From Saccostrea cucullata (lineage: Eukaryota), in NCBI RefSeq assembly GCF_032062105.1, contig NW_026933200.1, forward strand, positions 248,001-312,000: a DNA stretch of 64,000 nt, read 5' to 3'. Position numbers: made by a program. Below, one piece after another: positions 18,001 to 21,888 of the stretch. Every line of letters starts with the position of its first letter. Position 1 is the first letter of the stretch.

Positions 18001-21000
18001 CTTCAGTTCCGTCCAGTCAGCGTGAAGTCCACACACCCACCCAGTGGAGTACCGACTGAATAACCATAAGGTTTTCTTACTAGTGGAGCAGTCACATCGC
18101 TTTACCCCCTTCACACACTTACACGGTTTATCTAGGTCGAGATTTTTTACCAGGTGTCTACCGAATGTTGTTCCACCTGTCTTCTGGATATGTAGAAACA
18201 CTATGACATCCTCATCTTCTAGATCAAGTGTGTATTCACGATTAAGTACATAATCTGCAAACTTGTTGGGTATTATTTCTCCATTTTTGTACGTTTGTAC
18301 GTATTTTATCAGGCTGTTCGACCCATTGCCATTCGAATGATATGTTCTGCCTGTATATAAAACACAAAGGAACGTGGTGATAAAGACAGAGGCTGCCACA
18401 AAAACAAACCACTTCCTGTGACACTTCGACATTGCTGGCTCATTCTTCTAGGTCATTTTTAACTTAATGTTCCAAAAAGTAAATAAAAACAAGATACTTT
18501 AGATAGTGAATCTGAATGAAATTATTACAAGAAAAACCGGAAATGACAATTAAACTGGCTAAGTCGTGCCAATATGAGTCGCTCGTTTGCAGCCCACATA
18601 GAAAAGGTCTTCCGTATGTCCGTCTGTCTGTCTAGCAGCCCGTCCGTCTACCTATAAAGCTTTCGTTATCATGCGATATCTCGGGAAAACTTTCAGCTTT
18701 TGCTAGTAAATTTTACATAACTCTTTATGGTCTAAGGATAGTTTTTTTTTTTTTTTTTTGGGGGGGGGGGGTGTCCAGAAAACAACAGATAAAAAAAAGG
18801 GGGCTACATTGTTGCAGCTAGTCTAAGTAAGGAGAAGGCAATGAATTTATAAGAGTCTTTTTAGATACAGTTTTTGATTTTTTTCCCCCTCCAATTAAGT
18901 TTCAGATCCTTAATTATACACATATAAAGAGAGCTATTCAACTTCATCAACATTTTTTTTTTACTTTTAACCTCAATTTTTAACTACAGGAAACCGGCAC
19001 CATTTTCAATGCAAGCTTTTGTATCTATATGGTATTTGGTGATCGAGAACTGATTTGTTACCTTTCAAAACCTTGCCAATGATCGTTGACTTGAAGCTTG
19101 GTATTGAATAAGCTGTTCGGGTATTTTCATCAAACTTTATAGGCCTACACAATTAGCTAATTTCCATTTCTCATTATTAATGAAGCTTGAACGTCATGGG
19201 TATACATATTATTTTTTTTATTTGTAGAGGGGGTATAAAGATATTACTCCAATCAATCATATAACGGCTCATTGGTAGAATTTTCAGAGGCTTTTGGTTG
19301 AAGTCACATTTCATGTTGATATTAAAAAGATAAAAAGAGGTTGGGATTCCTTATTGGCAATATCTGTTCAGTTTTTGCTGAAATCTGTTTAAATTCCGAT
19401 GTGCATAGACTGTGCTTTTGAAAGTTTTTTTTCTGTATGCAAATTATTTTCAAAGTCTGCTACGTGTCTCTCACAAGAAAAAAAAACACTTCAAGGCTTT
19501 CAGATGATAACTTACACCATTTAACTATAATTTTTATTTAAAATTAATTCGCTATACTTAAATTAGCAATCTAGCTATATAGTTGTAGAGGATCGATTTT
19601 TTTTAAAATTTAGATTGACGTACGTGCTATTTGCATGTGTCACTAAATATAGTAAAACTTGATATCTCGAACTCGATTGGACCGTGAAAAAACTTCGAGA
19701 ATTTCGAGTGTTCGAGATACAAAAGGCGAAATGCTCCAAGAAAAGGTGATTGGAACACAAATTATCGTCAATCGGTGCTTTAAGTTATGCCATTCGAGAT
19801 ATCCCTATTTGAGGCAGTTCGATGCATTAGAAATAGAAGAATAAAGTTAAAAGCGGAAAAAGCAAAACCAAATAATTAATTCCCCAATAATGGGGATTCT
19901 GCACCGTTTATACCGCTTGATGACGTTGAACATGTTGTCTGCAGAAAGCACTACCCAAAAGTCTCTGGCTTTAGATGCCATCAAGAATAACAGAGTGTAT
20001 CTTCTCCCGGGGGCACAAACATTTGTAGTAGAAGGAAGCAAAGGAGACAAGTATGCTGTTACACTTCATCCTCAGGAAAAATGTCAGTGCCCAAGCCTCG
20101 GAAGCTGTTATCACATTCTAGCGGCAAAGTTGAGTGTTGGCATTGAAGAACTTGAAGAAAAAAAGATCTACAACTTAACTCAACTAAGAAAAAACAACAG
20201 AAAGAAGCCCAACAAAAAAGCGGGGAAAAAAGTGCCAAGGCCATGTGATGTTGAAGAAGTAATTGCTGCCCCTGACTCTGTTCAAAAAACAGGAGCGTTT
20301 ACGCCATCACAGAGACAAGTTCCCATTGAAATGGCAAGGGAAATGTCGGATATTGCAGAAGAAGGGGAAATGTTAGGGGAAGATGTAACACCATCTCCAG
20401 TGTTTGGTTCTAGGAAAAGAAAATCTGTCCAAACCACGGTGAAGAGTGTAAAAAGGTTAAAATTCGAGGACATGTCTACAACTCCACAGTCAAATCCATC
20501 AGAAAAAGCAAAGGAGAGTCCTAACTGGGTTTCAAATGACAATTTTACTTTGAAGATCTGCCACAAAAACATCATTGAAAATGGAGAAACTCTAGATTGC
20601 GACATCATAAATTACTGTCAGAAACTGCTTCGAAACCAACATCCAGAAATCGGAGGACTGCAGGACACTAGATATGCTCCAATTAGAGAAAATGGCAGAT
20701 GGAAATATGCATTGCCTTTCAAGACATTAGGTGGGGAAACAGCTGCACAGGTTCACCATACAGGGCAAGATCATTGGGTTGTCTCTATCAAATTAAGAGA
20801 AAACAACATTAATCTGTATGACAGTTGCACAGGGAAGAAACCAACACTGACAGATTCATTAAAAATCCAGCTCTCGAAAATTTACAGGAACTCGCAGCAG
20901 ACAAAGATAAATGTAAATGTTCCAAGGGTACAACAGCAAAACAATGGTGTAGGCTGTGGTGTTTTTGCTCTGGCATTCCTTACGGAGTTTGCAACAAACA

Positions 21001-21888
21001 AAGTGGACCCCAAAGATATTCATTTTGACATTGCAGCTATGAGAGGTCACTTGTTGAACTGCATCAGTCATCAAACTATGACTCCATTTCCAAGGAAGAG
21101 AGCAATTGTTCCACCAAGAAGGTTAAGTCTTTCAAAGACTACAAGTATATCATTTGCAGTGAATTGTGCATCTGATTGCAGTTTACCAGATGTCTTTGAT
21201 GACATGTTATCATGCGATACATGTGGGAAATGGTTTCACCAGCAATGTGCCGGAATCCAGCTGGAGGACTCTCGCAGTTTTGAATGGGTTTGTGGAGTTT
21301 GTACAAATTGAAAAAAAACTGATGTAACTAAGAGTATAGATCAAGAAAGAAGCTTATAATTTATTTGTATCAGGCTGTTTTCCCCCTCCGCTTGACGGTT
21401 GTTTGTGGGAAACTGCTAGGTATATGAAGAAAATAGTTTGTAGTCTTAATTTATATGTCTATGTAGTGCTTTTAAATAGTAGCTATTAGTTTAGTATTCT
21501 TTTCCATTTTTATATGCGCTTTTATTCAGTTAAATCACTCTCGCTTTATTCCCCCTCCGCTTGACGGTTGTGCCAGGGAATACTGCTAGATCATTCATAA
21601 ATCTTAATTAAATGTATGTTTTTTTATTTATTGTATTTTGATAAATACACATGTAATAATAAAATAAAATATAAATGCATTTTGATTAGATTGAAACATA
21701 AACCATATTAAAAAGAAAAGATAAAAGTTTTCTGATGCAAAGCTTTTTATAAACTGTTATATCTCAGTTGTTTAACCATTATATAATAACTTTTTATAAA
21801 CAAGCAAAAATTTAAAGTAAAGTCGAAATAAACCAAAAAAGTTCATTTACATTAAAAGAAGTAGAAAGAACCCCTCCCCCCAAAAAAC

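What the first reader, a model, noticed from the sequence alone, without database searches (positions are those of the whole stretch)
19890..21311. Intact SWIM - Ulp1 protease - PHD ORF without any transposase: a candidate mobile or domesticated chromatin-targeted deSUMOylase
Seen: 473 codons without a stop, an intact SWIM CxC…CxH, a full His/Asp/Gln/Cys set (DHW, YDS, QQQ, GCG) and a complete C4HC3 PHD finger, although the residue before the catalytic Cys is Gly rather than the usual Asp. No DDE domain is visible upstream, where a pogo-like MITE end (~19648-19825) abuts the ORF. Established: SWIM, Ulp1 and PHD domains travel with Mutator-like and Zisupton-type transposons, and SUMO takes part in TE silencing. 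Inference: either a recently truncated transposon gene or a standalone histone-reader/SUMO-protease anti-silencing module. A possible acceptor (gtctgcag, ending at 19944) suggests it could be a terminal exon.
Basis: partly seen in the sequence, partly recalled or inferred. Interest (0 to 1): 0.7.

Follow-up and report, generated by a model that had tools for sequence, protein, structure and literature searches.

The report
Truncated Mutator transposon gene fragment
The open reading frame is the back half of a Mutator-like transposon's transposase gene, with its zinc finger, SUMO-type protease and histone-reading finger intact but its DNA-cutting half missing, so it is most likely an ordinary, fairly young transposon remnant and not a new host gene.

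Summary
Window 19890-21311 (+) is an uninterrupted 473-codon frame. It holds a Pfam Peptidase_C48 domain (E 1.3e-9) and a PHD finger (E 1.5e-7). It also holds a CxCx5CxH SWIM-type motif that stays below Pfam's cut-off.

All 10 longer relatives found (856-1458 aa) carry a MULE transposase domain ahead of the same SWIM-linker-Ulp1-PHD tail. A profile of 18 relatives that carry the MULE part (1003 positions) matches the window only at positions 535-1001. Nothing else in the 64 kb matches the front half.

No terminal inverted repeats flank the piece.

The fragment keeps 64 of 66 strongly conserved family columns and the His/Asp/Gln/Cys set. Gly355 before the catalytic Cys occurs in 0 of 59 relatives. 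Under neutral drift the frame would stay open only up to about 2-5% divergence, so the piece is either young or constrained.

Copy number, expression and synteny could not be checked. Mutator transposases with Ulp1 and PHD domains in animals are already in print (PMC2836005). Interest is low.

The parts
19890..21311 (+). Open frame of 473 codons plus stop. It corresponds to the C-terminal ~47% (profile positions 535-1001 of 1003) of a MULE-SWIM-Ulp1-PHD transposase.
   Evidence: E 3.6e-133 to the profile of 18 MULE-carrying relatives; relatives.
19890..19946 (+). First 19 codons (MGILHRLYRLMTLNMLSAE). They have no counterpart in relatives.
   Evidence: tblastn starts at 19929-19953. The profile match starts at residue 30 of the 486-aa form, which is nt 19938. 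pLDDT is below 50 for residues 1-20.
19947..20159 (+). SWIM-type zinc-finger module (residues 20-90). The ligands C65, C67, C73 and H75 map to nt 20082-20114.
   Evidence: The motif is conserved in relatives. Pfam SWIM gives E 0.044, below the cut-off. 3 of 60 family members hit SWIM at E<=0.01. There is a weak match to the MEKK1 SWIM, E 0.18. The model shows three strands then a helix at pLDDT 90-96.
20172..20243 (+). Conserved basic stretch (NLTQLRKNNRKKPNKKAGKKVPRP) at the start of a disordered linker (residues ~95-205). That it is a nuclear-localisation signal is inference.
   Evidence: Columns are nearly invariant among the 10 closest sequences. pLDDT is 43-62 across residues 95-205.
20517..21089 (+). 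Ulp1/SENP-type cysteine protease domain (residues ~210-400). It has H295, D311, Q350 and C356. The Gly355 codon GGC lies at 20952-20954.
   Evidence: Pfam C48. The family profile matches Ulp1 1euv at E 8.1e-12 and SENP1 at 2.6e-10. Foldseek's top hits are SENP1, Ulp1 and SENP2, with Ulp1 1euv at TM 0.62.
21165..21302 (+). PHD finger, C4HC3 (residues 426-471), with Trp448 in the position of the methyl-lysine cage Trp of H3K4me3-reading PHDs. The cage assignment is recalled.
   Evidence: Pfam PHD. The best solved matches are TAF3, PHF2, EBS, SPP1 and BPTF.
21374..21589 (+). 3' flank holding two copies of a 47-nt motif (21374-21419 and 21543-21589, 85% alike). It may be subterminal transposon sequence. 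This is not established.
   Evidence: No other copy exists in the window.
19661..19803 (.). MITE-like unit upstream of the ORF with an 11-nt perfect inverted repeat, GATATCTCGAA/TTCGAGATATC. It is not part of the MULE fragment.

Best explanation
This is a 5'-truncated remnant of a Mutator-like (MULE) DNA transposon.

In the intact element one long intronless gene encodes, in order: an N-terminal region (CG-1-like in some members), the MULE DDE/RNase-H-like transposase core, a SWIM zinc finger, a basic disordered linker, a Ulp1/SENP-type cysteine protease and a C-terminal PHD finger.

The window holds only the part from just before the SWIM finger to the stop codon. The catalytic transposase half and any recognisable terminal inverted repeats are missing. 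The piece therefore cannot move itself and is probably not mobilisable.

The frame is still open and keeps nearly all family-conserved residues. This is most simply explained by youth: little neutral divergence since the copy was made or cut.

Shown here: the domain content, the homology to MULE-bearing proteins, the absence of the front half, and the absence of flanking inverted repeats.

Inferred: that the copy is recent. It is also inferred that in intact elements the PHD finger steers the transposase to H3K4me3-marked promoter chromatin, and that the protease removes SUMO or a related modifier during transposition. The fragment lies about 1.4 kb upstream of the start of a heparan-sulfate 6-O-sulfotransferase gene, a promoter-proximal spot that would fit such targeting.
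For: Relatives of 829-2365 aa: 10 of 10 found carry PF10551 MULE.

Of the 60 aligned family members, 16 hit MULE, 43 PHD, 33 Peptidase_C48 and 5 CG-1 at E<=0.01. By my tally of the listed lengths, the 16 MULE-bearing members are among the 19 members of 776 aa or more.

tblastn of 18 relatives against the whole window hits only 19929-21308. All other hits have E>=0.09.

A profile of 18 MULE-carrying relatives matches the ORF at positions 535-1001 of 1003 (E 3.6e-133). Among the 2963 six-frame segments, no other reaches E<3.

Continuity across the break in relatives is seen in P0004, P0006, P0009 and P0019. P0010, at 1133 aa, sits on a 3714-nt contig.

No inverted-repeat pair links 17000-19950 with 21312-24200; the best match is 13 nt at E 0.11.

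The window keeps 64 of 66 columns that are at least 80% conserved in relatives.

4.9% of single-base changes would create a stop. P(no stop) is 0.25 at 2% and 0.03 at 5% neutral divergence.

Against: No near-identical copy was found. The closest protein among 5.8 billion clusters is 68% identical, and it is a 314-aa fragment. Youth is therefore inferred from the intact frame alone and not from a sister copy. That database may simply not hold this genome.

An intact 473-codon frame that keeps 64 of 66 conserved columns is also what purifying selection would give.

The frame begins with an ATG in a fair context (A at -3, G at +4, read).

At least two database proteins (P0024, 469 aa; P0028, 458 aa) have the same SWIM-to-end extent without a MULE part. 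Their contexts are unknown.

The retention test is biased upward for the query, because the relatives were chosen by similarity to it.
Confidence: 0.85

Rival explanations
1. It is a standalone, selectively maintained SWIM-Ulp1-PHD protein. It would be either a domesticated host deSUMOylase aimed at H3K4me3 chromatin, or a transposon-derived regulator (a truncated product that competes with or assists the full transposase). It would be translated from the ATG at 19890.
For: The frame is intact and 64 of 66 conserved columns are kept, with the catalytic His/Asp/Gln/Cys and all eight PHD ligands present. The predicted folds are confident, at pLDDT 90-98 over residues 21-90 and 210-473. The ATG has A at -3 and G at +4. 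P0024 and P0028 show the same extent. The locus sits in a promoter-proximal intergenic spot.
Against: No ortholog or close relative is known; the best is 68% identical. The first 19 residues have no counterpart in relatives and are modelled poorly. Gly355 replaces an Asp/Asn kept in 56 of 59 relatives, which looks like drift and not constraint. Expression is unknown. Truncated TE frames of this age are common.
Confidence: 0.07
2. It is the terminal exon of a spliced gene. The AG at 19943-19944 would be a real acceptor, with upstream exons (with or without a MULE domain) spliced on.
For: Homology to relatives begins within a few bases of that AG. A pyrimidine-containing stretch precedes it.
Against: The closest relatives are continuous frames across this point. 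P0010's contig leaves no room for an intron. No MULE-like coding piece exists anywhere in the 64 kb on either strand. The 1.4 kb upstream holds no open frame of 80 codons or more and runs into the first exon of a gene on the opposite strand. The segment before the SWIM part is a poorly conserved linker, so the coincidence with the AG is loose.
Confidence: 0.04
3. The fragment is a 5'-truncated retrocopy of a MULE messenger RNA made by LINE machinery, and not a DNA-level truncation. This concerns the origin only. The piece would still be an inert remnant.
For: A run of about 50 A lies at 21882-21931, roughly 570 nt after the stop. 5' truncation is typical of such copies. No inverted repeats were found.
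Against: No target-site duplication joins the 5' break to the sequence after the A-run. The best is a 9-mer that lies inside the A-rich tract itself. The same C-run/A-run motif occurs at 45087-45138 and, inverted, at 18742-18771 with unrelated flanks. The A-run therefore more likely belongs to another low-complexity repeat.
Confidence: 0.08

Closest known systems
Animal Mutator/MuDR transposases carrying C-terminal Ulp1 (and PHD) domains, as reported for hydra and lancelet (Bao, Kapitonov and Jurka 2010, PMC2836005; Repbase entries cited there were not seen)
   Same: They share the same tail of Ulp1 protease followed by a PHD finger. Relatives of the window ORF carry the MULE domain and a SWIM-type motif in front of it. 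The named relative is a 984-aa Mytilus edulis 'SWIM-type domain-containing protein' (P0013, 36% identity over 96% of the query).
   Different: The window copy lacks the whole transposase half and recognisable ends. Some relatives add an N-terminal CG-1-like domain (5 of 60). I did not find that domain mentioned in the passages read.
Plant Ulp1-bearing MULEs (the Arabidopsis ULP-like gene family and the melon, Arabidopsis and rice MULEs with ULP1 domains, cited in PMC2836005; the original papers were not read; the names KAONASHI/KI-MULE and CUMULE are recalled)
   Same: A Ulp1-type protease is associated with Mutator-like elements.
   Different: As recalled, in the plant elements the ULP gene is a captured or separate gene and not a fused C-terminal domain with a PHD finger. 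The window belongs to an animal family, and its sequence relatives are not plant proteins.
Ginger1 transposases with Ulp1 (and in one family PHD) C-terminal domains (PMC2836005, Table 1 read)
   Same: They have the same accessory module at the C-terminus of a DDE transposase.
   Different: The Ginger core is a Gypsy-integrase-like DDE. Relatives here carry PF10551 MULE or PF00872 instead.
Ulp1/SENP SUMO proteases (yeast Ulp1 1euv, human SENP1/2/3/5; SENP8/NEDP1 for NEDD8)
   Same: They share the fold and the catalytic His-Asp-Cys plus Gln. Evidence is the profile match at E 8e-12 to 1euv and Foldseek probability 1.00 with TM 0.46-0.65 normalised to the targets among the Ulp1 and SENP1/2/5 hits.
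   Different: Sequence identity in the structural alignments is 12-19%. The position aligned with the first substrate-tunnel Trp of Ulp1 is Thr234 here and varies in the family: W in 25 of 56, K in 12, M in 8. The tunnel role is recalled. The substrate (SUMO, NEDD8 or other) is unknown.
Zisupton / KDZ transposons
   Different: No KDZ/Zisupton-type transposase family was hit in any relative, only MULE and Transposase_mut. The one Zisupton paper I opened (PMC12730594) does not mention Ulp1, SWIM or PHD. The original Zisupton description was not seen.

Membership tests
Mutator-like element (MULE/MuDR) transposase gene | MULE DDE/RNase-H-like transposase domain (PF10551 / PF00872) | tested here: not met
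   The domain is absent from the ORF and from all six frames of the 64 kb. It is present in 10 of 10 longer relatives and in 16 of 60 aligned members. The window is therefore derived from this family and is not a functional member.
Mutator-like element (MULE/MuDR) transposase gene | Sequence homology to the region downstream of the DDE core in bona fide MULE transposases | tested here: met
   The profile of 18 MULE-bearing relatives matches at positions 535-1001 of 1003, E 3.6e-133.
Mutator-like element (MULE/MuDR) transposase gene | Terminal inverted repeats flanking the element | tested here: not met
   No inverted pair links 17000-19950 with 21312-24200 beyond 13 nt, E 0.11. The only longer inverted match is a T-run/G-run versus C-run/A-run low-complexity pair.
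Mutator-like element (MULE/MuDR) transposase gene | Target-site duplication of about 8-10 bp | not testable with these tools
   The element ends are not defined, and no other copy or empty site is available.
Ulp1/SENP proteases (Peptidase_C48, clan CE) | Pfam C48 match above the curated cut-off | tested here: met
   38.7 bits against a cut-off of 20.7, E 1.3e-9, covering profile positions 91-202 of 217.
Ulp1/SENP proteases (Peptidase_C48, clan CE) | Catalytic His, Asp and Cys plus the oxyanion Gln | tested here: met
   H295 (59 of 59 relatives), D311 (58 of 59), Q350 (58 of 59) and C356 (59 of 59) are all present in the window.
Ulp1/SENP proteases (Peptidase_C48, clan CE) | Ulp1-like fold including the N-terminal substrate-binding half | tested here: met
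   The AF2 model has pLDDT 90-98 over residues 210-400. Foldseek to SENP1, Ulp1 and SENP2 aligns 198-242 columns at probability 1.00. This is a prediction only.
Ulp1/SENP proteases (Peptidase_C48, clan CE) | Two Trp residues forming the Gly-Gly tunnel (role recalled from the Ulp1-Smt3 structure) | tested here: inconclusive
   The second Trp is present (W296; 58 of 59 relatives). The first is Thr234 in the window and W in only 25 of 56 relatives.
Ulp1/SENP proteases (Peptidase_C48, clan CE) | Isopeptidase or endopeptidase activity on SUMO or a related modifier | not testable with these tools
   This needs an enzyme assay.
PHD finger | C4HC3 zinc ligands and a Pfam match above the cut-off | tested here: met
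   All eight ligands are present. PF00628 scores 31.8 bits against a cut-off of 24.
PHD finger | Binding of H3K4me3 through an aromatic cage | tested here: inconclusive
   The best solved matches are H3K4me3 readers (TAF3, PHF2, EBS, SPP1, BPTF). Trp448 is kept (W in 42 of 53 relatives). The other cage positions were not mapped and there is no binding test.
SWIM zinc finger | CxCxnCxH signature | tested here: met
   C65, C67, C73 and H75 are present. C73 occurs in 27 of 32 relatives and H75 in 31 of 33. 'CxCP' is in the family consensus.
SWIM zinc finger | Pfam PF04434 match above the cut-off | tested here: not met
   13.8 bits against a cut-off of 19.6, E 0.044, on the isolated 76 aa. No hit at E<=1 on the whole protein. 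3 of 60 members hit at E<=0.01.
Domesticated transposase-derived host gene | Single-copy ortholog at a conserved position across species, under purifying selection and expressed | not testable with these tools
   No eukaryotic genome or transcript collection was available. The protein databases give no relative above 68% identity.
Zisupton/KDZ transposon | KDZ-type transposase in full-length relatives | tested here: not met
   Only MULE and Transposase_mut were hit among the transposase families.

The most novel reading that the evidence does not exclude
The truncation is not an accident. On this reading a SWIM-linker-Ulp1-PHD protein lacking the transposase core is made from this locus and kept by selection. 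It would act either as a chromatin-targeted SUMO-type protease recruited by the host, or as a transposon-family regulator that occupies H3K4me3 promoter sites or strips SUMO from silencing factors. The unique Gly355 next to the catalytic Cys would then mark a changed activity.
Probability: 0.07. Interest if true: 0.55.

Novelty: new member of a known kind. Interest (0 to 1): 0.17.

Why it matters
As a truncated Mutator-like remnant it matters mainly for annotation. It should be masked or labelled as TE-derived and not called a 'SWIM/sentrin-protease' host gene.

It also gives one clean example of the MULE-SWIM-Ulp1-PHD family in a lophotrochozoan-type genome. It lies just upstream of a housekeeping-type gene start. 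That fits, without proving, the idea that the PHD finger guides such elements to promoter chromatin.

Only if the locus proved to be conserved and expressed would it become an interesting case of a transposon accessory module, a protease plus a histone reader, recruited without its transposase.

Tried and rejected
1. I looked for a degraded transposase half in the window. tblastn with 18 relatives and a profile search of 2963 six-frame segments found nothing.

2. I looked for terminal inverted repeats and target-site duplications. Nothing exceeded low-complexity or chance-level matches.

3. I looked for DNA of relatives. The search for related loci with the alignments A1 and A2 failed because no stretch was conserved enough. 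With the single protein, against bacterial and archaeal genomes, 268 pattern matches were found but none was a relative. That collection holds no animal genomes, so this says nothing about copy number.

4. The listing of cluster members, meant to find near-identical copies and source names, was switched off.

5. Rfam on 17000-24000 gave no family at gathering score.

6. The tandem-repeat scan of the 3' flank found only the A-run and short microsatellites. The '169-bp repeat' is just a 47-nt motif occurring twice.

7. The protein atlas returned only leads below 0.9, namely PHD plus Peptidase_C48 clusters in Chordata and Cnidaria.

8. Literature. The four-term search 'Mutator-like, Ulp1, SWIM, PHD' found 0 papers. 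'MuDR, Ulp1, PHD' found 2 papers, of which one was relevant.

10. The 'pogo-like' label for the upstream MITE was considered. No evidence for or against it could be obtained.
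Full report
**What is there.** Window 19890-21311 on the plus strand reads from an ATG through 473 sense codons to TGA. Stop-to-stop the frame is 486 codons, from 19851. It is the longest open frame in the 64 kb; the next is 252 codons. At this base composition (34% G+C, stop-codon frequency 0.073) 486 open codons are expected with probability of about 1e-16. 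It is therefore real coding sequence.

Pfam finds Peptidase_C48 (E 1.3e-9, 38.7 bits against a cut-off of 20.7) and PHD (E 1.5e-7, 31.8 bits against 24). The SWIM signature C65-x-C67-x5-C73-x-H75 is present. The Pfam SWIM model, however, gives only 13.8 bits (cut-off 19.6, E 0.044) on the isolated segment.

An AlphaFold2 model built on 60 aligned relatives has mean pLDDT 80.7. It has two confident blocks. Residues 21-90 form three strands then a helix, as expected of a SWIM module. Residues 210-473 form the second block. A disordered basic linker joins them.

Foldseek places the second block with SENP1, Ulp1, SENP2, SENP3 and SENP5, at probability 1.00 and TM up to 0.65 on the target. A family profile matches yeast Ulp1 (1euv) at E 8.1e-12. 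Its PHD part matches PHF2, EBS, SPP1, TAF3 and BPTF, which are all H3K4me3 readers.

**What it belongs to.** A word-indexed search of 5.8 billion protein clusters found 8 relatives of similar length. The best is a 314-aa fragment that is 68% identical. The search restricted to longer proteins found 10, and all 10 carry the MULE transposase domain PF10551. One of them is named: a 984-aa Mytilus edulis 'SWIM-type domain-containing protein', 36% identical over 96% of the query.

An exhaustive HMMER search of 1.84 billion representatives gave 64 proteins at E<=1e-30 and 1446 at E<=1e-10.

Pfam scans of the relatives give this architecture: an N-terminal region (CG-1-like in 5 of 60), then MULE (16 of 60, by my tally all among the 19 members of 776 aa or more), then SWIM, a linker, Peptidase_C48 (33 of 60) and PHD (43 of 60). 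No other transposase family appears.

**What is missing.** tblastn of 18 relatives against the whole window hits only 19929-21308. Every other hit has E>=0.09.

I aligned 18 MULE-carrying relatives and built a 1003-position profile. I ran it with filters off over all 2963 six-frame segments of 15 or more residues. The ORF matches positions 535-1001 (E 3.6e-133) and the next best segment has E 3.4. The front 53% of the protein, including the catalytic transposase core, is therefore not in the window in any frame.

Comparison of 17000-19950 with 21312-24200 shows no inverted-repeat pair longer than 13 nt. The piece thus has neither a transposase nor recognisable ends.

**The splice-acceptor idea.** Homology starts within a few bases of the AG at 19943-19944. 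The relatives closest in this segment are P0004, P0006 and P0019, which are 63-70% identical here. They are single frames running from the MULE C-terminal part, through a variable linker, into 'STTQ(K/R)SLAL...', where the window's homology begins.

The 1133-aa relative P0010 lies on a 3714-nt contig, which leaves no room for an intron. The segment before the SWIM part is poorly conserved, so the coincidence with the AG is loose. I did not build or search any spliced model.

**State of the fragment.** Against 59 relatives the window keeps 64 of 66 columns that are at least 80% conserved. The 59 relatives have a median of 0.94 on the same leave-one-out measure. The comparison favours the query, because the relatives were picked by similarity to it.

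H295, D311, Q350 and C356 are in place, as are the eight PHD ligands.

Two departures stand out. Gly355 sits before the catalytic Cys, where relatives have D in 47, N in 9, other residues in 3 and G in 0 of 59. Thr234 sits at the column aligned with the first tunnel Trp of Ulp1, which is variable in the family: W in 25 of 56.

4.9% of possible single-base changes in the frame create a stop. Freedom from stops has probability 0.25 at 2% and 0.03 at 5% neutral divergence, and less once indels are counted. The copy is therefore either young or constrained. The sequence alone cannot say which.

**Surroundings.** On the minus strand, 14554-15210 and 17911-18447 are exons of a heparan-sulfate 6-O-sulfotransferase gene (Pfam Sulfotransfer_2). 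The best named relatives are annelid, gastropod and cephalopod proteins at about 60% identity, and unnamed ones reach 82-85%. The first exon starts about 1.4 kb from the ORF, in divergent orientation.

An F-box gene begins near 24.2 kb on the plus strand. The window is an ordinary gene-bearing region of a lophotrochozoan-type animal genome. It is not human, and it holds no N.

A 143-nt MITE-like unit with a perfect 11-nt inverted repeat lies at 19661-19803. A diverged second copy lies near 12150-12276. It is a separate small element whose superfamily is unknown, and at least 125 nt separate it from the homologous part of the ORF.

**Mechanism.** In the intact element the most likely working is as follows. 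The DDE core cuts and pastes the element. The SWIM module and the N-terminal domain contribute DNA or protein contacts. The conserved basic stretch directs nuclear import. The PHD finger docks the protein on H3K4me3-marked promoter chromatin. The Ulp1-type protease removes SUMO or a related modifier from chromatin or repair factors at the site.

The last three steps are inference from the known families. Bao and colleagues proposed a role of the protease in transposition or repair (PMC2836005, discussion passage read).

The fragment in this window cannot carry out the first step. I rate it as an inert remnant at 0.85.

How it was truncated is open. It could be a DNA-level deletion or an incomplete copy. 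A 5'-truncated retrocopy is less likely. The A-run at 21882-21931 would fit a retrocopy, but no target duplication supports it. The same C-run/A-run motif also recurs at 45087-45138 and, inverted, at 18742-18771.

**Known or new.** Mutator transposons encoding Ulp1 domains in hydra and lancelet are in print, as is a figure aligning the 'Ulp1 and PHD domains' of Ginger1 and Mutator transposases (PMC2836005; abstract, table and passages read). The broad MULE survey PMC6446971 (passages read) lists mollusc MULE groups and does not use the word protease.

This is a new member, and a broken one, of a known kind.

**What stayed unchecked.** I could not check copy number and the nearest copy in the source genome, orthologous loci, or expression. 

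Noticed in passing
window 18742-18771, 21864-21931, 45087-45138: A C-run/A-run motif (about 'ACACCCCCNCCCCCCAAAAAA') occurs three times. The copy at 21864 runs into ~50 A. The copy at 18742 is in reverse orientation (T18G12). The two nearest copies bracket the MULE fragment 3.1 kb apart as an inverted pair. 'A8G5CT' (18791-18805) matches 'A8GAGGGCT' (21924-21938) at 14 of 15. The flanks are otherwise unrelated. It is low-complexity sequence and remains unexplained.
   Followed up: partly
window 19661-19803; ~12150-12276 (-); 8579-8598 (-): A small MITE-like repeat with a perfect 11-nt terminal inverted repeat (GATATCTCGAA/TTCGAGATATC) and an internal third copy of the motif. There is one diverged full copy and one partial match elsewhere in the window. 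The superfamily was not determined.
   Followed up: partly
window 21374-21419 and 21543-21589: A 47-nt motif is repeated 169 nt apart just after the stop codon, at 85% identity. It could be a subterminal binding-site repeat of the transposon. There is no other copy in the window.
   Followed up: partly
window 22875-23500 vs 48342-49095: An inverted pair of a dispersed repeat, 69-80% identical over about 650 nt, lies between the fragment and the F-box gene. It was not classified.
   Followed up: no
relatives P0016, P0023, P0060 (N-termini): Full-length members of this MULE family start with a domain that matches Pfam CG-1, the DNA-binding domain of CAMTA factors. It occurs in 5 of 60 aligned members (best E 1.5e-7). 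It is a possible terminal-repeat-binding domain, and I did not see it mentioned in the passages read.
   Followed up: partly
window 33089-37667 (-) and 9550-9837 (+), 58438-58713 (-): Long open frames made of short tandem peptide-like repeats, such as 'CVRTFQCVYYTLCEDISMCLLHS'. These are presumably minisatellite arrays and not genes.
   Followed up: no
window 14554-15210 (-), 17911-18447 (-), 24207-24530 (+), 2509-2817 and 5289-5603 (+), 45079-45363 (-): Host-gene exons surround the fragment. They are a heparan-sulfate 6-O-sulfotransferase (two exons), an F-box protein, a PH plus SH3 exchange-factor-like gene and an LRR protein.
   Followed up: partly
database proteins P0122 and P0162: Two long database proteins join the Ulp1-PHD tail to unrelated parts. 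One has polycystin channel domains. The other has ZSWIM3-like N-terminal, FAR1, MULE and GRF domains. The first is probably a gene-model fusion with a transposon fragment, and the second a different MULE lineage with the same tail.
   Followed up: no
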